A stretch of DNA of 64,000 nt from the human T2T-CHM13v2.0 reference genome, Homo sapiens. This document shows positions 36,770-64,000 of the stretch, in pieces. A program made the position numbers and the translations under genes. Every line of letters begins with the position of its first letter. Within the stretch, counting starts at the first letter, position 1. The DNA lies in NCBI RefSeq assembly GCF_009914755.1, contig NC_060941.1. One strand, given 5' to 3'. Under the pieces are notes generated by a model that saw nothing but the letters and a program-made list of their open reading frames with translations, made no database searches and was not told the DNA's origin.

Positions 36770-39054
36770 TCAGTAACCATGTGTGGCAAGTGGCTATTGC
36801 CAGCACAGAATGTAGAACAGTCACCGTGGAAATTTCTTACGGGCTGGTGCTGTTCCAGTGCCTAAAGGAAGAGGGCTGTTACTGGGGGGTGCACGGTCCA
36901 CACACTCACACATGCGCACCACTCCTTCCTGGAGACACCCATGGGGTCAGTGTCCCTGTGCTTCATTCTCTGCCAGTCTTGCTCAGCCCAGAAGCTGGTG
37001 GCTTTTCCTCTCACTTCCTCCCCTCGCTTCCCCTCCAGGGGATGACAGGTGCAAAGGCTCACGCATCTCGGCCCTCCAGGTGCAGCACTGATCTGTGCAC
37101 TCAGCCTGCACAACCTGCTCCCCTCCGTAATCAGGCTGCCATTGCCCCTGAGTGTGATGCTAGTCCCAGGAGGACAGAGTTGAGGGATCTTAACATGGAA
37201 TAATTGGGAGAGGACATCAATGTGGACCCTATGCTAAGGCCCCTGTCTCATCAGAGGGCCTGCCCCGGGGCCCCCATGAGCTGGCTCAGGAGACATCTAG
37301 TAGAACTCTGCCTCCATGGCCTGCATCCCTGGGCCTGCCCCAGGCAGACGGACATGCAGCAGTGACCAGATTGAGGCTGGGCAGAGTGAGATAGGGTCCC
37401 CTGGGTGCCCAGCCCTTCACCAAAGCCAAGACTTTGGGAACTGGGGGGGCGGGGGATGGACTGGGCTGCAGGAAGGAGGATAGAGTGGGGTTGGAGTGTT
37501 TTTGCCCAGGGCCCATCCGTTTGTCATGGCCACAGTCCCTGCAGCTTAATACAATCAGGTGGGTTTGAATGGGACAGAAATCAGGCATTACAATGTACAG
37601 ACAGCAGCTTCCTGACCTTTGGGAGTTAGCTGCCCTGTTCTCAACCATCAAACTTTTATTTTTCCATCCTTCCCACCTTCCCACTCACTATGGAAGCCTC
37701 TTGATTCTCTTAACTAATGGCCAGAAAGGGGCCACCAGTGGCCACAAGAGTAAGGTTGCCTGCTCTCAGGGAGGGCAAGAGTGGAGTGGCCCTGAACTGG
37801 GAAGGGTGGCCCCATGGCTGGGGCCGCCCACCCCACTCATCTGAGAAGCCAGGCTAGGGTCAGAGTCTATTCCCCTCCTGACCCCCTCCCAAAGGATATG
37901 CTCCTTGTGGAGTGTTGGGTCTGTGCTTATCCCAGATGCCTCCCCAAGCAGCCAAATGTTTCCAGACACAAAGCCTAGGTAGGTCCATGTGTCATTCCAG
38001 TCAAGAGCGCAGGGAGTAGCTGAGCCCCTCTAGAACCAAACTTGATGACTCCTGGAGCCACAGCCTCAGGGCCAGGGCTACAGAGAAGCTTCTGGATGCC
38101 CTGACTTCCATCTGTCACCTCATGCCAATAAGGAAAGTTTCGGGTGGATCTGGCCGAGGCGGCTGGGGTACAGAAGGGGGACCCAGAGATGGGGCAGCCC
38201 AGCCCTCTGCCCTCTCCTCATCCCCATCAGGTAGATTCTGCGAACCCCTGCCATGCCCCGGGGATCCTGTGACTTCGTGACATTACACAGCAGTCATGTC
38301 ACCTCCCAACTATCCTGATGTTTTCTTTGTGGTCTTTCTTTTCAGTGTCCTCACTGTATGCCCACTTTACCCACTTCCCACCTCCGGTCCCCCTCATGCT
38401 GTGCATGGATCCCGAACCTCTCCCAGCCCCTTTCTGAGTCCCCCTAGCAGGGCCATGCAAGACAGCTAGCTGGGAGAAATGAAAGCACGCCCAGGTCCTA
38501 GAGAGCTCCGAGACTCTTCATCCTGGCTGTTCTCACTCATAAACCAGGTAGCCTGGGTCCCCTTTCAGGAAGATGCAATCTGATCCCCTTTATGAAGGGT
38601 CCTCCTTTCCACCTGGACTTACCCTTTCTATGAACATCCATCTCATCTGGTTGGGGGTGCAGATATCACTCTTAGTAGAGCCTCATTCTCACCATGTAAC
38701 ATGGGGCTGCACGGACCTTCCTGGGCCACACAGCTGGTGGCAAGTGGCACCTGGCTGTGCCCATCTTCAGAATTCTGTCAGAATAAATGTTCCTAGAGAA
38801 GGCTAGACACTGGATAGTTTTTAGAGTGGGGAGTAGTTCTTTTCTAGAAAGGCTGGGTGGTGACCAACCACTCTGGGAACAGCTCCTTCTTCCCACATCC
38901 AGGTGTCCACCCCAGCCTGGAATTTGGATCAGGATCCCGTCTTGAATTATTATGGGTTGTGATCAGGGATCTCCCCTGCTTCCTCTCTTTTCCCCACTCT
39001 GGACTTCTCATTTCAGTTTAATCTGTTAATTTCTGTTCTTATTTCACTTTGCAG

Positions 39055-39095
39055 ACTATTTGCCGGTTTCACAAGACATAATTTTTATCAACTAG
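39055..39095 (+). CDS. MSI2: MSI2 alternative last exon, coding part: (D)YLPVSQDIIFIN* (short isoform)
   Basis: Acceptor TTCACTTTGCAG (AG 39053-39054). A phase-1 join to the 34493-34567 exon gives QFP-DYLPVSQDIIFIN and TAG at 39093-39095, which I recognise as the short MSI2 isoform C-terminus. Confidence 0.88.
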
Positions 39096-40450
39096 CTCTT
39101 AAGAGAGGCATAGCAAAGTGGGGGTTGCTACCATTTCTAGAGAGAGAGGACACAGTCCCGGCCTGGGCTGCCCCCGCTCCAGTCAATGCTCACTGAAAGT
39201 CTGTCTTAGCTGCCTGTTTGAATGACTGTTCTTTTTCTCATTTTTAATTCTTGGACTCATGTCCTCATTGCTTCACTCAATTAAAAAAAAATTATTCTCC
39301 AGTCCCCTCCCACTTTGCTTCTTGTATGCATTGTGACCGACCCCACTTCCTCAGAATGTAACGGGGCCAGAGGGAAACTTCTCACAAACTTCGTAGAGCC
39401 TCCTCAGGGGAAGCTAGGAAGAAGACATCAAATGTTTTTAAGTCATGACCAAACAGGCTTGTTGGGGACATATCATGGGGTGAGCTTTGAAGTGCTGGTG
39501 GTCCAGAGGGGTTGCAGATACGTGACTTGGAGCACCCGTGTCTTACGATGGACAGTGATAAAGGTGAACACACAGAGACAGACTATTCTCTAAGAATGTG
39601 AAAAACCTGATCTGGAAGAGGAGCTATATAAACACTATCTGACTATCTTTGTCTTTTGGGGCCAGTGGCTGTTGGCATAATCACAAGCCTGTCTGTCTTC
39701 GAGAAGGGACAGTGGAGTCATCCAGGTGCTGCCACATGACAGGCACGGTGGGCACCGATCCACAGTGGGCCCCGCCTTCCCCAGCTCGCCTCCCTGCCTG
39801 TGCTGGCCTGGCCTTGCCTGCTGGCACCATTGGAGTAGGAGGGGGTGGAACACAGGGGGCCCATCCTGATCAGGCCCCATCTCAAGGTTGGCACTCCTGC
39901 CCATCACCCTTAGAAGGATCTTTTCCCATGGCTTGACTTCCTTCATTTCCCTAACTGAAATACACCCACTCTCTTGGAATAATGACGTACCACTCAGTTG
40001 GACCCTCAAGAGTCACTGCTTTGTCTGTGCTGGTAGTTTGTGAGAAGTGACCCGCACGCTTCCATTTGATGCATTTGATGTGAGTGAATCCATACATTTG
40101 AATGTCATTGTCCTTGAGACCCTACATGTGCAGTTTGGCTCATCTCATTAAAGATGCTTGATGTAATAATTGGTTAGTTTCCTTTTATTTTCCTGCAGGC
40201 TTTTCCATGAGTATTATTTTTTTCAAAGAACAAATCTGTATGGCTTTTCCCCATCTCCATATTTTGTTTTGCTATGAATTGCTTTGCTTTGGTGAACTTG
40301 TCCTAGTATGCTTGCCTCACAAACGTTTTAGCCATTGTGAATTTTCTTCATCTCTGTAAATAGTTCATCTGTGCTTCTCCCTGATGACGTTTTATTTTTT
40401 TTCCCCTGTAAGCAACCGAGGTAGAAAAATAAATTGTTTACCATGGACAT
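39096..40450 (+). other. MSI2: 3' UTR of the short MSI2 isoform (3' end approximate)
   Basis: No recognisable interspersed repeat, increasingly U-rich after the stop codon, ends at AATAAA 40428-40433 followed by GU-rich sequence. Confidence 0.7.
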
Positions 40451-56848: not shown

Positions 56849-57907
56849 CCCTTGTATCTGTGCTTGCCCATCTCCCGCAAGCCCAGCCACCAAGAAGAGG
56901 CCTGGCCCTGGGAACTCAGTATCAGGGGCCTGTCTGCCAGGTCATATGGAAAATGTATTTGGCGGGTGAGGGGTGACTGGTGAGGCTGGATGGCCTAATG
57001 GAACAGGAGGGGGATGGCGAGGAGCAGCAGAAGGGGGCCAGGAGGACGGCTGTGCAGGATGCTGGTGCAAGCTCCATCCCTTCCCTACCAGGAGGCTCCC
57101 AAGGGGCTAGGCCAGGTTTTGGCAAGGCCCTGGTGTTTCAGATGTAGGGCACAGAGGCAGTGGGGTGGCGACTATGGAGCTGCTGCCCGTGCTGTGTGAG
57201 GGACAGATTGGGCAGCCCTGCTCCTTCAGCCCCTCTTCTCACACCCTCCCTCTCCAGGGTGGAGATGAAATTCCAGCCCTCAGCAGTGTCTGATGCTCCA
57301 CCTCCAGCAGGAGCCTTTATTTGAGATTAAGGATAATGGATTTCCTTTCTTGGATAAGTTTTTTTTTTCTTCCTCTTTCAGACTTTTTGTCCAAAATGCA
57401 CTCAATTCCAGAAAATGGACCTTTTCTTAACAAGTCTTTATTGACTACACTCCCCTCCCCCACTTCGTTCCTCTTTCCCCCTCCCCCAAGTCTTTCCGTG
57501 CTTCCAAGGAAACCCGCTGTTTTCAGCGCATGGTAAGGAGTGCAAAGGAATGACTCACCTGCACCCTCTCCCTCCAGCATCCCCTGGGCCTTGCTCTTAA
57601 CAGCAGCAGAAGCCTGGGTGTCCTGGGGGTTGGGACAGAGAGAAATAACTTGACTTCTTCCTTGTGTTTCTTCAGCAATTTCTGCCAAGACCCTCATCTT
57701 CAGAAATCTAGATGCTGCCTGGAAGAAATGGGGAGAGGACTTGGTTGGGGGTCCCTCCCTTGGTCTCCCTCTCGGTTCATTGCTGCCTTCTGGGGAAGGG
57801 AGGGCCTCCAGTCACCATGCATGGTCTCCATGGGAGCTTGGAGACCTGCAGCCAGGGACAACCATACATTTATTTCACCTGGATCTTTCTTTTTCCCCCT
57901 TCAACAG

Positions 57908-57931
57908 CCCTATTACCATATTTAAATGCAA
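57908..57931 (+). CDS. MSI2: Candidate 24-nt in-frame MSI2 microexon: QFP-ALLPYLNAS-FPAAAY
   Basis: About 50-nt AG-free zone with TCTTTCTTTTTCCCCCTTCAACAG acceptor, donor CAA|GTATGT, phase 1-1, no stop, followed by 11 UAG motifs. Confidence 0.72.
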
Positions 57932-57959
57932 GTATGTCTCTTTTCATTGACATTTTAAG

Positions 57960-58067
57960 TAGCTTAGCCTGACCTTTTTAGAGTAGCATGTTCCCCCTTT
58001 GAACTTCTTTCCCTTCAGTAGTACCGTGTAGCTAGGACAATAGTCTTAGTGTTTAGTGGGCTTCTAG
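57960..58067 (+). promoter_or_regulatory. UAG-rich cluster, putative Musashi-binding intronic splicing enhancer
   Basis: 11 TAG in 108 nt, including (G/A)T1-3AGT matches at 58018, 58040 and 58051. Confidence 0.6.
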
Positions 58068-59356
58068 TTCGCTCTGTTTGGGGGAGCTTTGTCTCTGCTT
58101 TCTTCCCTCCTCTGCTCCCTGCCCTTGACGGTGCATGTCTTCCTCTCGTCCTGTAGAAATTCCTTGTTTAAAAGGCTCAGTAGCTAAAGTTGAGCAGCCC
58201 TGTTGGGGGCTGTTTATTGAGTTTGCGGCTGGCTTCTGGCACATCATTTAAAACCACAGTGATTGGAAATGGGTCTTGGGGTCAGGCCTCCAAGCATCTG
58301 CCTGGATGGCAGAGGATGTTTGTCTTTATATGTATGGGAGTGTATCTGTGTATGTCCCAGCACGAGGCTGTGCGTGCACGTGCTGGTGGCTGAGAGAAGC
58401 CCAGGGTAGGGAACATGGCATACTTCATCTGGATTCTGCAGCTACAAGAGGTTACCTTGGCCTCCTGACTATTATTCCCGTTGCTGGGACATCCTTGCTG
58501 CCCGGTGCATTTTTAGATAGCATAAGCCTTGATCAAGAAGAAATCCAGGGACCCGTAGGAGACCCTCCAGTGCCAGCTTCATCTAGACCGTGGGGCTCAG
58601 ACCGAAGAGCCACATCTAAATTCCCACAATTGCCTCAGGAGGTTGAAACACCGAGAGATCAAATAAAGCCACAGGGCTCACCCCACATAGACCCCTGCAG
58701 CCCCGCACTCCCTTCCCTATCTGGCTCCATGTGTATGCAATCACCTGGGACCCCCCAATGCTTCACCCTCGGGCCTGGGGCTGTGATGCTGCTGACTTCA
58801 TGTTTTGACAAAAGTCTGGAGTTAAAAAGGCCATGCTAACCTGCAGAGCCTTTGGAGAACAGCTGGAATTAAGCCAGCTCCCGGCCAAGGTGCCTGCTCT
58901 GTCAAGAGGCCGTCCCAAGTGCCTCCTGCCTGTGGCACGGGGCTGACCACTCCGCCATGATCTCTGCCAGGAGCAGTGGGCCAGCCCAGCCATGCTCAGT
59001 TCTACTCAAGACAACCCCAGGGGAGCCACTGTGTCGATGCACGGCCAACAGGGAGCTCAACCCTGCTTCTCAAGAAAAAAATTCCTCCTACAATTCTTGA
59101 ATTATTGTTGTGGGCCTTCTAGAACCAGCTTCTGGGGTGACAAATGGGTGAGAATCAAACGCACCTAAAGATGTTGTGCCTTCCGGAAGCCTGACAGCCA
59201 CTACTCTGTGTCCCTCTCAAAAGCTGCCCTGTGAAAATCCCTTCCCACTCCTGTCTTTGTGTGGAGGGCGGGGGGTTGTGTGGCCCGTGACCTAGGTCTG
59301 TGCCTGGCCCTTTCAAGGATTCCTCCATGACTCAGGCTCCTCTCTCTCCTGACCAG

Positions 59357-59419
59357 GCTTCCCAGCAGCGGCTTATGGACCAGTGGCAGCAGCGGCGGTG
59401 GCGGCAGCAAGAGGATCAG
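59357..59419 (+). CDS. MSI2: MSI2 coding exon (approx. exon 11, 63 nt): (G)FPAAAYGPVAAAAVAAARGS
   Basis: Acceptor CTCTCTCCTGACCAG (AG 59355-59356), donor CAG|GTAGGA at 59420. Encodes the Ala-rich Musashi segment, phase 1-1. Confidence 0.96.
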
Positions 59420-59536
59420 GTAGGAAGGTGTATGGGACAGGCGACTCCCAGGCATGCCCCCAGTGTGCAGGGGGAGGTCAAGGCCCTGTCGGATCTGTGT
59501 GGCTGCATCTGTCCAACACCACTCTCACCACAGCCC

Positions 59537-59580
59537 CGGGGAGGGGGTGGACGGGGAGGGGGTGGACCGGGAGGCGCGGG
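59537..59580 (+). repeat. G-rich 15-mer duplication (CGGGGAGGGGGTGGA x2), G-quadruplex-capable
   Basis: Units at 59537 and 59552, then CCGGGAGGCGCGGG. Confidence 0.8.
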
Positions 59581-62500
59581 CAAGGCCTGGCCACCCAGGG
59601 CACTTGTAGTGGGGTCAGTCACAGTCATGGGACTGCAAACTAAAGGCAGATTATTATTCTCTCCTTGAAAAAAAAAACAAACCTGAGTTTCTTTTTGACT
59701 TTGACCATCCCGTCACCTGACAGCTAGCTTCGGGTACCTGTGGTCATTTCCCTCCTTGGCTTTTGCTAATTCAACAGGCTCCCTTCCTTGGGTCCCTGAG
59801 CCAGCCAGAGAAGTGCTAGGCTGTCCCCTGGGACCCTGCTGCACTGGTAGGTGGGCTTGCTGGTCTGGCTAAACCCCCAGAGCCCCTGAAAGCAGCCATG
59901 GGACCAGCCCTGGGCCTCAGTGAATGAAGCTGCTGTTTCTGGAGCCGCTGTGCCTCCCAGACTCTTCTTAGCCAGACTCCTCAGCTCCAGCTGCCAAGGG
60001 AATTGGGCTTTCTGTCCCATGAGGTTGCTCCAGTCCTTCTGTCTCCAAAGCCAACCTTTTGGAGGTCTGGAACCCCTCAAGTGACATGGGAACACTTTCC
60101 CAGCATTATCATGGGGTCAGGCCAGAGCTGGGATATGTCCAGGGTGCCCGGGGTCCCTTTTGTCCCTCTCCCCAGAATGCTTTCTGCCTTCCCAGGCAAG
60201 CAGGGCTTCTGCTGTGCCCTGGGCTCCCTCCCCACCCCTGCTCCCTGAACTGAGTGGTCATGGTTTGCAGCTCTGTCCCCCCACGCCCCACGGACAGGGC
60301 TCTGGAGCACCCAGGGAAGCGCCTAGTTTGATGTCACAGGGCTCTGAGGAGGGTGGGGCTGGGCAGGGTGGGGGGCTGGTGAGGGTACCAGGAAATAGAG
60401 CATTAAAAGCCCAGAGGGCAAATGCCAAGAACCCACACCCTGGGTGATGAGAAGTTGGCACAGTGAGGCCCATTAGAAAACTTCAGTAAAAATCCGTTCC
60501 ATGCAAACTGGCACTGCCTCGAGCTACAAAGGATCCACTCCCCCGAATCATCCCATTGGGGTTTTGTTTGGAGGGGGCTAGGGAGTTCTCAGGGGTTGCC
60601 GAGGGTCAGTTTGCCAGAGAGCTAGCAAGTGGGCAGACTGGCAGGCAGGTCCAGAGAGTGGGGCCCCCTTCCTGAGCTTCTGCTCACCACAGCCAGTGTC
60701 CAAAGGCCCCACCTGCCCTCTGGCCAGTGTCCCTCAGTCCCCCCAGCCCCGGGCCCCGGGGGCGGGGTGCACAGCTGCCTCGTGTCTCCCTGTGCCATTT
60801 GGTTTTTTAACTTGAGTGCTTTTTGGTATCATTATAAACAAGCCTTGGCCCTACCTGTGCCTGGGGTTGGGGAAAAGATAAAAGAAAACTCTTGAGATTT
60901 TTGAGTGTTGTTGGTTGTTGTTTTCTCCGTTCAGTTTCTTTCTTTTTATAACTTGGATTATGAAACTAAACTTTAACCCAAAATTAACCCTGCCTCTCTC
61001 CCCACCCCACCCCGTTCTCCTTGACTTCATGGCAAGTTTAAAGGGCAGCATGGGGTTCTTTATGAGTCTGAGAGCCGTCTCCCACGGTCTGTGCCCCCTT
61101 CTGCCACCCTACCCTCTCATGGACTCCCAGAGCCAGGTGGGAGTCCCACCCATCCCTCTAACTCCTAACCCCCAAGGTCATCTCCAGTCACACATTTTTT
61201 TTTTTTTTTCGGGATCAATGGTGTTTGATTTGTAGCCATTTCCATCAGGAGCAAAGTCTCTCCCAGCCCATTCTAGGTCAGCCATGCTCATCGCTGCACT
61301 GTTAGTGAACTGTATTCAGGAGTGTGCTCCCAGACCACCTGCCCACACCAGCCTGGGTTAGCGCAAGGAGTAAATCCTCAACTCCGAGGTGCCCGCCCCG
61401 CCCCACAGGGTGCAGGGTCAGCCTGGAAGCTACAGGGCAACCCTGCAGTGCTGCCGGGCAGGGTGTGTCAGGGGCTTGGGATGTGCCCCAGGGCAATGAC
61501 TAGACTGTATCCACCATAGTGAGAGCGCTGCCTAGGCAGGAAGACACTTGCCTGTGTGTAGCCAGGCTACCCTAGTTCCTCAGCCCCACTTTGGACCTGG
61601 AACAGGGTTACAGGTTTGGGAAAGGAAGCGTTCTGCCTTTCTTTCTTTTAACGCATTCTGCCAGTAAGGGGACTGTCACCTCACTCCTTCTAGAAAATGA
61701 TCGGGAAGCCAAGCCTGATGGGATGGCCAATTATTTACCTGTGGGTGGCCTCTCCGTGGCAAAAGCTCTTTGCTCTGAATTTCGAAGACCACAAAGACTC
61801 ACTTGGGTGTGTGCATCAGTCTAGGCCACAGAGGGCTCACTGGGTGTTGATGGCCTAGTTTCACCTTCCCCAGCTCCTGAAGCCCTTACTCACCCCAGCT
61901 CCTCCCCAGGATGCTCCTGCAGCCTCAACTACTGCAGGTCAGCATGAACTCAACTGCATTCCCTTATAGGGAGACACAGGGAGACATTCAGGGAGAGTCT
62001 GTTGAGTACCTACCTTGAACCTGGTACCATGCTAAACCTGGCAGGCAACTCCAAACAGTAGAAAACGTGGCCTCTGCTCCCCAGGGGCTCTCAGGCTTCA
62101 TTTAGGGATCAGACATCATCCTATGGACGGCCCTTTTTTTGTCTTTGATTTTTGTCTAGCTCCAACGTTTGGGTTTTTTTTTTTTTTTTTCCTTCCATTA
62201 TGACTTATAGGGGAAGCTTCCTGAAGTGAGAAGCACTTGCTGAGGGCCGTGGGGTGGGAGGCAGCTTCGTTTTTGCTCAGGGTGGCAACTTGGATCCATC
62301 AGGGCTATGGTGTCAGGGTAGGAGGTCTGGGGGGGCCTTGAGGTCTGTGCCCACCTCAGCCAACTCCTCTGGGCCAGCCTGCCCACCTGTTCCTAATTCC
62401 CCTAGGACCTGAGGTGAGCAGGGCTCAGGGGACCCCACCAGGTGAGGTCCCTGCCGACTCCTAGATAACTTCACTATCAGTGGTCACTTTTCTTTTCCCT

Positions 62501-63260
62501 TCACCTGGTAGTTTGAAATGTCATCTTTTCTTGTGCTCAGTCGAGAGTTTGTTTGTTTATTTTGATCGTATTCATTCAGTTCCAGTGGCCCCATCATGTC
62601 CCACCCAAACCTAAATTCAGTTTGACAGAAGCCTCCCCCGACAGGTGAGGGAAGTGGTTTGGATATTCAGGGTATTTTAGTTTGGGGTGACATTATGGGT
62701 GGGTCCGTGTATCAATCTTAGAGCTTCTGAGCCCCTGGTACCACCCCGTCCCACCTCTCCCCACCCACCCGGCCCCAGCCAGGACCCCTTACTGTACTTT
62801 ATACTTGCCAGCTTTATTCCAATCTAGTAACATGAGCTCCTGATGGTGGTGGTGAGTGTGAGCAGTCATATTTCTGTTGTCTTTTCTCTTGCTTGGTTGG
62901 GGCTGCGGTGAGAGTGTCTCTGAGGCATACTTTCCCGCCTCTCTTACGCTAGGATCTGCACACCTCCTCTCAAACACTCTTCTGAGCACGCTCAGCGGGA
63001 AGGTTTGTCCACACCTATTAATCCTCTCTCAGTGTCCAGCTTCCTGTTAGTACCAGCTGGTTTGCATGTTTTTGCTTGTTCAGATGAAACAGTTCAAGAA
63101 ACAAACTCATATCCAACTCTCAAGAAATGTCTTTTTTTGTACACTTTCGTTTTTGATTTTTTTTATTAGTTACAACTCCAAAACACCTGTTGTCCAGTAA
63201 AACATTTCACACCTCCCCTGCCTGTTCTTAGATTGTATGTATCTGTGGGACTGAACTAAA

Positions 63261-63308
63261 TGCATGCACCGTAGTAGATGTACTGGTAGCCGTAGCTGTA
63301 GTTGTAGT
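63261..63308 (+). promoter_or_regulatory. GUAG cluster plus UGCAUG, putative Musashi/RBFOX intronic element
   Basis: TGCATG 63261-63266, then 6 TAG, each preceded by G, in 63271-63308. GTAGT at 63271, 63298 and 63304. Confidence 0.55.
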
Positions 63309-64000
63309 ACATGCATTGTTGAGTTGATATTACAGGGTCTTTGACGGCTCGGCACAGCACGGCCGTCTGAAGGATAGTGCGGGGACCAGGAAGAGAAGGG
63401 GCTCCATATTTTCAATGTTTCCAAGGGGCTTGGATCCATGTTCTCACCATCAGCCACCACCACCTCCCCTCACACTCCCCGTTCCCCCAGTCCAGAACTG
63501 GGTCACCACCCTCAGCTCTAGCCTTCCTCACTGAGGTCTCTGTTGATATCGTCCAATTATAGTGCAAAAATGGAGCCAGGATTGGAAGGAGTCTTAAAGG
63601 TCTTCCTTGTTCTTGTCTTTCTCATACTATTCTTGAACAGAGCAGATCTTTTTTTATTTCTTAAGGCCTACCAGCAAGACTCCTTCAAGCCCTTCTACTC
63701 CTTGAGTCCTTTGGCAGGTCACAGCCAGCCCTTCAGGGATACGGGTCTATGTGGCAGTCCTGTCTATATGGATTACTTCTTGGGGTGGAGGGGAAATGAG
63801 ACATGGTAAGGAAGGGATTGAGATCTTGAGATCCTTGGTCTGCAGACAGGGAATGCACTTGGCCCTAGTGAATCATTGCTATTTGTTCTTAGGGTTGGTG
63901 AAGGTTAAGTAGGGTGAGAGTGGTGACATTCTTAGCATGGAGGTGACTGGCACAGTTTCGTGGAGACAGAAAGGGAGGTCGGCTTGGAACATCCAAGAGG

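What the first reader, a model, noticed from the sequence alone, without database searches (positions are those of the whole stretch)
57860..63310. Candidate Musashi auto-regulatory splicing circuit: two microexon-like modules with downstream UAG clusters flank MSI2 exon 11
Seen: two modules share the same layout, ATTTCAC (57872, 63204) - pyrimidine tract - AG - tiny exon - GTATGT donor (57932, 63235) - dense UAG cluster starting about 30-40 nt downstream (11 TAG in 108 nt; 6 TAG in 38 nt). I saw no comparable UAG density elsewhere in the window by eye. Established: Musashi RRMs bind UAG / (G/A)U1-3AGU, and Musashi proteins promote inclusion of photoreceptor-specific (micro)exons by binding the downstream intron. 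Inference: MSI1/MSI2 control splicing of MSI2 itself, remodelling the low-complexity C-terminal region (module 1) and possibly setting dosage through NMD (module 2). Individual pieces may already be annotated; the paired architecture is my inference.
Basis: partly seen in the sequence, partly recalled or inferred. Interest (0 to 1): 0.85.

Follow-up and report, generated by a model that had tools for sequence, protein, structure and literature searches.

The report
Musashi switches exons in MSI2 itself
The human MSI2 gene holds a 24-base exon, conserved from ray-finned fish to mammals, whose use in retina rises and falls with the Musashi proteins in published data, plus a stop-codon exon far upstream that would likely let Musashi cap its own amount, while the second look-alike module remains unproven.

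Summary
Both UAG clusters are real (11 TAG at 57960-58067; 6 at 63272-63307). Module 1 is a genuine, already catalogued 24-nt in-frame microexon (57908-57931). It is identical in mouse, and its peptide reaches gar and sturgeon. Published tables give 76-95% inclusion in retina, rods and olfactory neurons, 0 to 34-52% on MSI1 overexpression, and 0.85 to 0.38 in Msi1/Msi2 knockout retina. Musashi control of MSI2 splicing is therefore supported; direct binding is inferred. Module 2 is unproven. Its 3-nt reading is in frame, so it would not trigger NMD; it appears in none of five catalogues searched; and its UAGs form one degenerate hexamer repeat. A better NMD arm lies outside the window: a 78-nt stop-containing exon in intron 4, followed by UAGs, induced by MSI1 (0 to 56%), with a retina-enriched mouse counterpart. 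It is a candidate for the unexplained Musashi dosage feedback reported in 2026. Verdict: a new member of a known kind (splicing autoregulation by RNA-binding proteins). The pieces sit in supplementary tables; I did not find the circuit stated in print.

The parts
57676..57931 (+). Longer 256-nt form of the module-1 exon from an upstream acceptor. It shifts the frame; a premature stop follows if exon 12 uses its long acceptor.
   Evidence: Listed as the alternative acceptor chr17:57650418 in Ling 2020; AG at 57674-57675; stop position computed.
57872..57907 (+). Branch-point-like ATTTCAC, pyrimidine tract and acceptor AG of module 1
   Evidence: Sequence: 20 of the last 25 bases are pyrimidines; the nearest upstream TGC is at -61.
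57908..57931 (+). 24-nt in-frame MSI2 microexon between exons 10 and 11; replaces Gly243 with the 9-residue stretch ALLPYLNAS
   Evidence: Identical mouse exon chr11:88368212-88368235; PSI tables; peptide pattern in 61 of 175 homolog records; residue number.
57932..57939 (+). Donor of the microexon (GTATGT; 8 of 11 matches to a recalled U1 consensus)
57960..58067 (+). Cluster of 11 UAG, three of them (G/A)U1-3AGU; likely Musashi-binding splicing enhancer
   Evidence: no folding beyond shuffles (z 0.72). Binding is inferred.
59357..59419 (+). MSI2 exon 11 (annotated, 63 nt)
   Evidence: Annotation.
62953..63002 (+). It shifts the exon-12 frame and gives a predicted NMD substrate. RefSeq uses the same acceptor for a long last exon (62953-77184).
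   Evidence: 10 of 182 homolog records (rodents, birds, a lizard) splice it to exon 12 in the shifted frame; 62910-63002 is 28 of 31 residues identical to hummingbird.
63170..63234 (+). Possible 65-nt exon from a U-rich acceptor to the module-2 donor; contains a stop codon
   Evidence: Sequence only; not found in any catalogue searched.
63204..63234 (+). Module 2: branch-point-like ATTTCAC, pyrimidine tract with TGC at -13, AG at 63230-63231, and a candidate 3-nt exon at 63232-63234 (in frame)
   Evidence: Sequence; unsupported by catalogues and protein records.
63235..63242 (+). Weak donor-like site (GTATGT; 7 of 11 matches to a recalled U1 consensus, none on the exon side)
63272..63307 (+). 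Array of 6 UAG in a degenerate hexamer repeat, 38-73 nt after the module-2 donor and 270-305 nt after the 50-nt exon; predicted to lie in the loop of a short stem

Best explanation
MSI2 carries a conserved 24-nt in-frame microexon whose inclusion rises with MSI1 overexpression and falls in Musashi knockout retina, likely because nuclear MSI1/MSI2 bind the 11-UAG cluster just downstream and strengthen its weak donor, and the same proteins likely cap MSI2 output through a stop-containing exon in intron 4. Shown (published tables, sequence): the exon, its tissue pattern, its response to Musashi gain and loss, its conservation, and the intron-4 exon's stop codon and MSI1 response. Inferred: direct binding at 57960-58067; NMD of transcripts with the intron-4 exon; a resulting negative feedback. 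The added residues sit 8 residues after the 194-234 segment needed for cytoplasmic localisation and PABPC1 binding, and would tune interactions of the low-complexity tail (untested). Module 2 is probably not a matching microexon. Its most likely functional reading is a Musashi site acting on stop-generating splice choices in intron 11 (the conserved 50-nt exon, or the weak 63235 donor). I put that at about 30%, slightly below a neutral repeat.
For: Mouse exon chr11:88368212-88368235 is base-identical to 57908-57931, with mean vertebrate conservation score 4.36, and lies 1364 nt from exon 11 against 1425 nt in human. PSI: wild-type retina 0.80-0.85 vs 0.38-0.52 without photoreceptors; rods 92.8, olfactory neurons 95.1, most tissues about 0; mouse retina 88.1 vs others 1.2; human retina 75.9, cortex 12.4. 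HepG2: 0 in control, 33.9 with MSI1, 51.8 with MSI1 plus PTBP1 knockdown, 0 with PCBP2. Msi1/Msi2 knockout: 0.83-0.87 falls to 0.29-0.45. Skipping reads rise 2.7-fold while total junction signal falls to 0.64 (gene level 0.69), so this is a switch and not only loss of rod transcripts. Musashi binding is enriched downstream of activated exons in general (PMC9509328 section 9). Peptide pattern in 61 of 175 homolog records, from gar and sturgeon to placentals. Intron-4 exon (L005:9053-9130): HepG2 0 to 56.0/61.2, retina 20.4, cortex 13.0; stop at codon 10; 5 TAG in the next 100 nt; mouse 83-nt exon 1573 nt after exon 4 (human 1623), retina 12.2 vs others 0.08. A feedback that holds MSI protein constant from one allele is reported without a mechanism (PMC13175383).
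Against: I saw no CLIP peak and no UAG-mutation test for either cluster. The HepG2 effect needed the top 1% of expressing cells, a setting that also activates cryptic exons. Inclusion stays at 0.29-0.52 in knockout or photoreceptor-less retina, so other cells or factors include it too. Only 9% of human retinal microexons respond to MSI1 against 71% to SRRM3/4, and I found no SRRM data for this exon. The intron-4 exon is absent from the down, up and unchanged knockout lists searched. It would need to divert about half of the transcripts to explain two-fold compensation, while steady-state PSI is 12-20%. Its placing in T2T used a recalled hg38 coordinate; the plain offset missed by 1.8 kb. MSI2 protein rose only 1.4-fold, not significantly, in Msi1 knockout retina. 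MSI1 also binds the Msi2 3'-UTR, which offers another route for feedback. Five photoreceptor exons (four of them conserved microexons) were dispensable when deleted.
Confidence: 0.65

Rival explanations
1. Module 2 is neutral: a degenerate hexamer repeat that happens to follow a weak donor-like hexamer, with no splicing role.
For: The TAGs form one tandem repeat. The donor has no exon-side match to U1, and 11% of positions have an equally good GT 15-60 nt upstream. No row at this place in Murphy, Matalkah, Ling, MicroExonator or Ciampi tables. 0 of 135 records show the insert.
Against: Of 10 microexon-like layouts in 264 kb, the two richest in downstream TAG are modules 1 and 2. They are the only donors with 7 or more TAG in 20 of 24 strict rule settings; the base rate is 0.32% of positions. 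The rules were written after seeing the modules. The array lies next to a conserved alternative exon. NMD products and 3-nt exons are easily missed by these catalogues.
Confidence: 0.4
2. Module 2's UAG array is a Musashi enhancer for stop-generating splicing in intron 11: the conserved 50-nt exon (62953-63002), or 65/282-nt exons ending at the 63235 donor. Transcripts would be sent to NMD.
For: The 50-nt exon is spliced to exon 12 in 10 of 182 records from rodents, birds and a lizard. Its stop lies 120 nt before the exon 13/14 junction (276 nt with the long acceptor). The 65-nt and 282-nt forms carry stops 231 and 412 nt before it. TGCATG (recalled RBFOX motif) follows both donors, at 63063 and 63261.
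Against: The array is 270-305 nt from the 50-nt exon, beyond the 200-nt zone of UAG enrichment. The exon is in no retina-specific or Musashi-dependent list searched. If exon 13 is skipped, the stop is only 47 nt from the junction and may escape NMD. TGCATG is not enriched in the window (46 found, 49 expected).
Confidence: 0.3
3. Module 2 is a real 3-nt neural microexon (63232-63234) that adds one residue at the exon 11/12 junction, driven by SRRM3/4 through the TGC at -13 and by Musashi downstream. It would be in frame and cause no NMD.
For: Branch-point-like word 22 nt upstream, pyrimidine tract, TGC at -13, a U-rich tract further upstream, and a UAG array 38 nt downstream; frame preserved.
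Against: No row at the expected mouse place in MicroExonator (embryonic data) or in Ciampi's retina lists; 0 of 135 records, including 61 that carry the module-1 peptide; weak donor.
Confidence: 0.15
4. Module 2's array acts after splicing, as a Musashi site in the 3'-UTR of the predicted isoform that ends in the long exon 62953-77184 (stop at 63048-63050).
For: The RefSeq model covers it (hub annotation); most retinal MSI1 sites are in 3'-UTRs (59.7%).
Against: The model may reflect retained intron; homolog records splice out at the 63003 donor instead.
Confidence: 0.15
5. Module 1 depends on Musashi only indirectly (for example through PTBP1, SRRM3 or SRSF9 levels), and the reported dosage feedback runs through the MSI2 3'-UTR rather than through splicing.
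For: Synergy with PTBP1 knockdown; most retinal microexons are SRRM3/4-driven; MSI1 eCLIP peak in the Msi2 3'-UTR; indirect effects are discussed in PMC9509328.
Against: MSI1 alone gives 34% in HepG2 while no ENCODE knockdown listed, PTBP1 included, exceeds about 1%; the densest UAG cluster of 264 kb sits in the canonical activating position; no TGC near the acceptor.
Confidence: 0.2

Closest known systems
Musashi-activated photoreceptor exons (Ttc8 exon 2A, Cc2d2a, Cep290, Prom1; PMC4991804, PMC6952364, PMC9509328)
   Same: UAG cluster in the proximal downstream intron, retina-enriched inclusion, loss in Msi1/Msi2 knockout, gain on MSI1 overexpression. Module 1 is itself a row in these papers' tables.
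   Different: The host gene encodes one of the two regulators. The exon is also 95% included in olfactory neurons and 38-52% in photoreceptor-less retina. Direct binding is not shown for this exon.
RetMIC/RetLONG sets and VastDB events MmuEX0029826 (24 nt) and MmuEX0029825 (83 nt) (PMC9303857)
   Same: The same two mouse Msi2 exons, listed as retina-enriched.
   Different: Most RetMICs are SRRM3/4-driven with an upstream UGC; module 1 lacks a near UGC and responds to MSI1. The main text has no occurrence of Msi2.
Autoregulatory poison exons of RNA-binding proteins (SR proteins, PTBP1/PTBP2, RBFOX, MBNL, hnRNPs; recalled)
   Same: The regulator changes splicing of its own or its paralog's pre-mRNA; conserved stop-generating exons are predicted to feed NMD.
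   Different: NMD sensitivity and dose response are untested for MSI2. Musashi is mostly cytoplasmic and splices only where very abundant, so the loop would be tissue-restricted.
Described MSI2 isoforms: variant 2 with last exon 11b (PMC5599597), exon-12 alternative acceptor (PMC13228403), exon-13 skipping (10.1101/2023.03.01.530580)
   Same: They remodel the same C-terminal low-complexity region and change localisation or regulation.
   Different: The passages read do not describe the 24-nt, 50-nt or 78-nt exons, nor Musashi control of them.

Membership tests
Musashi-activated photoreceptor exon (module 1) | Retina/photoreceptor-enriched inclusion | tested here: met
   Published rows read; also high in olfactory neurons.
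Musashi-activated photoreceptor exon (module 1) | UAG cluster within 200 nt downstream of the donor | tested here: met
   11 TAG in 200 nt vs 0-5 after eight annotated MSI2 exons checked; shuffles.
Musashi-activated photoreceptor exon (module 1) | Falls on Musashi loss, rises on gain | tested here: met
   dilution check.
Musashi-activated photoreceptor exon (module 1) | Direct Musashi binding, and dependence on the UAGs | not testable with these tools
   No CLIP tracks on hand; four supplementary files of PMC9509328 were too large to read.
Musashi-activated photoreceptor exon (module 2) | UAG cluster downstream of a donor | tested here: met
   6 TAG within 100 nt, but one tandem repeat.
Musashi-activated photoreceptor exon (module 2) | Evidence of splicing and of retina enrichment | tested here: inconclusive
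   No row in five catalogues; these are selected lists that miss NMD products and very short exons.
SRRM3/4-type neural microexon | 3-27 nt, frame-preserving, conserved | tested here: met
   Module 1: 24 nt, conserved. Module 2: 3 nt, conservation untested.
SRRM3/4-type neural microexon | UGC close upstream of the acceptor | tested here: not met
   Module 1: nearest TGC at -61. Module 2 has one at -13.
SRRM3/4-type neural microexon | Response to SRRM3/4 | not testable with these tools
   No such MSI2 row in 18 supplementary files of PMC9303857.
Autoregulatory poison exon (module 2, 3-nt reading) | Premature stop more than 50-55 nt before the last junction | tested here: not met
   Stop stays at the normal place in exon 13.
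Autoregulatory poison exon (50-nt exon 62953-63002) | Premature stop and conservation | tested here: met
   120 or 276 nt before the exon 13/14 junction, 47 nt if exon 13 is skipped; conserved in amniotes.
Autoregulatory poison exon (50-nt exon 62953-63002) | Inclusion controlled by the host protein | tested here: inconclusive
   Not in the Musashi-dependent lists searched.
Autoregulatory poison exon (78-nt intron-4 exon) | Premature stop; induced by the host family; conserved position | tested here: met
   The mouse counterpart is matched by position only; its sequence was not seen.
Autoregulatory poison exon (78-nt intron-4 exon) | NMD sensitivity and effect on protein dose | not testable with these tools
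   Needs NMD inhibition and exon deletion.

The most novel reading that the evidence does not exclude
MSI2 holds a three-part Musashi sensor. The 24-nt microexon marks the high-Musashi state in the protein tail. The intron-4 poison exon and the intron-11 element (conserved 50-nt exon plus module-2 UAG array) burn excess transcript through NMD. Together they are the unexplained feedback that keeps Musashi protein constant in photoreceptors carrying a single allele.
Probability: 0.2. Interest if true: 0.7.

Novelty: new member of a known kind. Interest (0 to 1): 0.45.

Why it matters
Musashi proteins are needed for photoreceptor survival and are studied in stem cells and cancer. A 2026 study found that one allele of four keeps protein levels normal through an unknown feedback (PMC13175383). 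The exons named here give that feedback concrete, cheap tests. A poison exon in MSI2 would also be a natural handle for splice-switching oligonucleotides. The microexon gives retina and olfactory neurons an MSI2 form, missing from the human RefSeq models of this window, with a 9-residue stretch almost unchanged since the ancestor of bony vertebrates and no known function. The mechanism class itself is textbook.

Tried and rejected
Repeat or RNA-family origin: no Rfam match in 57000-64000; both modules and the 50-nt exon match only their own place in the human genome (that search skips simple repeats). Structured RNA: none of three downstream regions folds better than shuffles (z 0.72, 1.20, 0.60). 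Shared ATTTCAC as a special signal: rejected; it occurs 5 times in the window and reads as an ordinary branch-point-like word. Dilution as the sole cause of the knockout effect: rejected, since skipping reads rise 2.7-fold. NMD from the 3-nt reading: rejected. A plain hg38-to-T2T offset for the 78-nt exon missed by about 1.8 kb. I then took, among 15 AG-78-GT candidates in intron 4, the one that fits a recalled hg38 coordinate, lies closest to the mouse distance, and has the most downstream TAG. Earlier scan findings were not available. About 170 kb of the middle of MSI2, its last 15 kb, and the MSI1 gene were not examined. The search index counts one 'poison exon' in PMC13175383 that the readable text lacks; I could not see its context. 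The hit in PMC2739200 was a DOI string.

Full report
1. Observation. The module-1 cluster (11 TAG, 57960-58067) is the densest 108-nt window in the 64 kb and in the 264 kb that I held (170 kb at the 5' end of MSI2, the window, 30 kb downstream; about 60% of the gene). The best elsewhere is 8, on either strand. Block-wise dinucleotide shuffles of the window reached 11 in 108 nt in 1 of 200 runs and 6 in 40 nt in 3 of 200. ATTTCAC (5 copies) and GTATGT (11 copies) are common in the window. The module-2 TAGs are one degenerate hexamer repeat.

2. Module 1 is a real, catalogued microexon. The exon is 57908-57931, 24 nt, in frame between exons 10 and 11. It replaces Gly243 with ALLPYLNAS. MicroExonator lists the mouse exon chr11:88368212-88368235 with the identical 24 bases, 'missing in GENCODE', mean conservation 4.36 (PMC7821500, one supplementary row). 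Murphy 2016 gives PSI 0.80-0.85 in wild-type and 0.38-0.52 in photoreceptor-less retina (PMC4991804, supplementary row; that file was cut). Ling 2020 gives rods 92.8, olfactory neurons 95.1, brain 13.8, hair cells 12.3, most others near 0. For the human exon (hg38 chr17:57650650-57650673) it gives HepG2 0, MSI1 overexpression 33.9, with PTBP1 knockdown 51.8, PCBP2 0, retina 75.9 and cortex 12.4 (PMC6952364, supplementary rows). Ciampi 2022 lists it as mouse RetMIC MmuEX0029826, retina 88.1 vs 1.2 (PMC9303857). Matalkah 2022 lists it among exons lost in the Msi1/Msi2 double knockout, 0.83-0.87 to 0.29-0.45 (PMC9509328). That knockout targets Msi2 itself, so I checked for dilution: skipping reads rise from a mean of 35 to 95 (2.7-fold, Welch p 0.016, n 4 and 4, raw counts) while total junction signal falls to 0.64, near the gene-level 0.69. 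This is a switch. The peptide pattern occurs in 61 of 175 homolog records (top 120 of 827; top 120 of 136, a search biased towards it), including gar, sturgeon, caecilian, newt, frogs, echidna, opossum, birds, turtles and squamates. It is almost invariant. Ling also lists an upstream acceptor, window 57676, giving a 256-nt frameshifting form that meets a stop early only with the long exon-12 acceptor.

3. Module 2 is unproven. Longer readings to the same donor (65 nt from a U-rich acceptor at 63170; 282 nt from the annotated acceptor at 62953) contain stops. For function: among 10 microexon-like layouts in 264 kb, modules 1 and 2 rank first and second by downstream TAG. They are the only donors with 7 or more TAG in 20 of 24 strict rule settings, against a base rate of 0.32%. 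These rules were written after seeing the modules, and looser donor rules give many more hits. Against function: the donor has no exon-side U1 match; no row at this place in the five catalogues; 0 of 135 records with the end of exon 11 carry the one-residue insert. These negatives are weak, as the lists are selected and gene predictors rarely model 3-nt exons (own knowledge). I could not test DNA conservation.

4. Ten of 182 homolog records (gerbil, snow vole, seven records from five bird species, a lizard) contain an exon ending at the equivalent of 63002 and spliced to exon 12 in a shifted frame. Window 62910-63002 is 28 of 31 residues identical to the hummingbird record. In human the 50-nt exon 62953-63002 would place a stop 120 nt (short acceptor) or 276 nt (long acceptor) before the exon 13/14 junction, or 47 nt before the junction if exon 13 is skipped. 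This is the anatomy of a conserved poison exon. The module-2 array is 270-305 nt downstream, farther than the 200-nt zone described for Musashi, and the exon is in no Musashi-dependent list I searched.

5. A better NMD arm outside the window. Ling's table has a second MSI2 row, hg38 chr17:57259977-57260054, 78 nt: HepG2 0, MSI1 56.0, with PTBP1 knockdown 61.2, retina 20.4, cortex 13.0. I place it at L005:9053-9130 (T2T chr17:58135053-58135130) in intron 4 (a recalled hg38 coordinate was used, and a plain offset missed). Exon 4 ends on a codon boundary, so the exon reads nine codons and then a stop, which would cut the protein near the end of the first RRM (domain limits recalled). Five TAG follow within 100 nt. 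Ciampi lists a retina-enriched 83-nt mouse exon 1573 nt after exon 4 (human 1623 nt), PSI 12.2 vs 0.08; the match is by position only. It is absent from Matalkah's down, up and unchanged lists.

6. Mechanism. Shown: Musashi level controls the microexon; MSI1 induces the intron-4 exon; both are followed by UAG clusters in the position where Musashi binding activates exons. Inferred: direct binding; NMD; negative feedback on MSI2. Jeong and Stoilov 2026 report that MSI1 or MSI2 protein stays normal from a single allele and propose a feedback without a mechanism (PMC13175383). The poison exon is a candidate, but steady-state PSI is low, MSI2 rose only 1.4-fold (not significant) in Msi1 knockout, MSI1 binds the Msi2 3'-UTR too, and MSI1's own compensation needs its own element, which I did not examine. 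The function of the nine residues is unknown. They lie 8 residues after the 194-234 segment required for cytoplasmic localisation and PABPC1 binding (PMC13228403). Similar conserved photoreceptor microexons were dispensable in mice.

7. Literature. Ten searches found no paper that states Musashi autoregulation of MSI2 splicing; most hits were seen only as listings, and the library lacks most subscription papers. Seen: PMC9509328 abstract, sections 6, 8, 9, passages, a term search of 11 of 12 held supplements (four more too large); PMC4991804 passages and a term search of 10 of 11 supplements; PMC6952364 passages, term searches of 6 supplements and part 1 of one; PMC9303857 passages and a term search of 18 supplements; PMC7821500 a term search of 8 supplements; PMC13175383 first fifth, Discussion and passages; PMC13228403 first seventh and passages; PMC5599597, 10.1101/2023.03.01.530580, PMC10987577, PMC12697546, PMC7948980, PMC13247117 and PMC2739200 passages only. 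The index copy of PMC13175383 holds one 'poison exon' that I could not read, perhaps in review material, so the idea may have been raised there. Unseen supplements (the large Matalkah files, bioRxiv files) and VastDB/ASCOT may list module 2 or the 50-nt exon.

8. Verdict. Observation confirmed; interpretation partly supported. Module 1 is known as a table row and is Musashi-responsive (about 90%; direct about 80%). The intron-4 exon as an NMD feedback arm is about 55%. Module 2 has some function in about 60% of my weight, split over three readings. Splicing autoregulation by RNA-binding proteins is a known class, and this is a new member of it with a direct link to an open question. Interest 0.45.

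Noticed in passing
L005:9053-9130 (T2T chr17:58135053-58135130, about 331 kb upstream of the window): 78-nt exon in MSI2 intron 4 with an in-frame stop at its codon 10 and 5 TAG in the next 100 nt; MSI1-induced in Ling 2020; candidate poison exon, central to this report.
   Followed up: yes
window 39055-40447: The annotated alternative last exon matches the published MSI2 variant 2 exon 11b (PMC5599597). An ATTTCAC lies at 39041 and a looser TAG cluster (6 in 60 nt) at 38794-38853, upstream of its acceptor.
   Followed up: partly
window 57676-57931: Published alternative acceptor giving a 256-nt frameshifting form of the microexon; premature stop only with the long exon-12 acceptor.
   Followed up: partly
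window 62862-63002: Conservation extends upstream of the 62953 acceptor; bird and lizard records use longer forms of this exon.
   Followed up: partly
window 63260-63317: A short inverted repeat brackets the UAG array and would loop it out; not more stable than shuffles. TGCATG sits at 63261 and 63063, also at 58132.
   Followed up: partly
Homolog records P0089-P0172: Reptile, bird, amphibian, marsupial and fish records carry further alternative exons around exon 11 (several different inserts before and after it); squamates pair a second insert with the 24-nt microexon. I did not look for their human counterparts.
   Followed up: no
L008:1679-1786 (about T2T chr17:58157679): The densest TAG cluster in the 5' 170 kb of MSI2 (8 in 108 nt, 5 in 40 nt); no exon looked for.
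   Followed up: no
L004:5266-5400 (T2T chr17:58555266): Donor-like site followed by 8 TAG in 150 nt, downstream of exon 13.
   Followed up: no
L005:9670-9800: A second TAG-rich stretch in intron 4 after a GT site, 540 nt beyond the 78-nt exon.
   Followed up: no
window 57908-57931 (mouse ortholog): Inclusion is 95% in olfactory sensory neurons, as high as in rods; whether Musashi drives it there is open.
   Followed up: no
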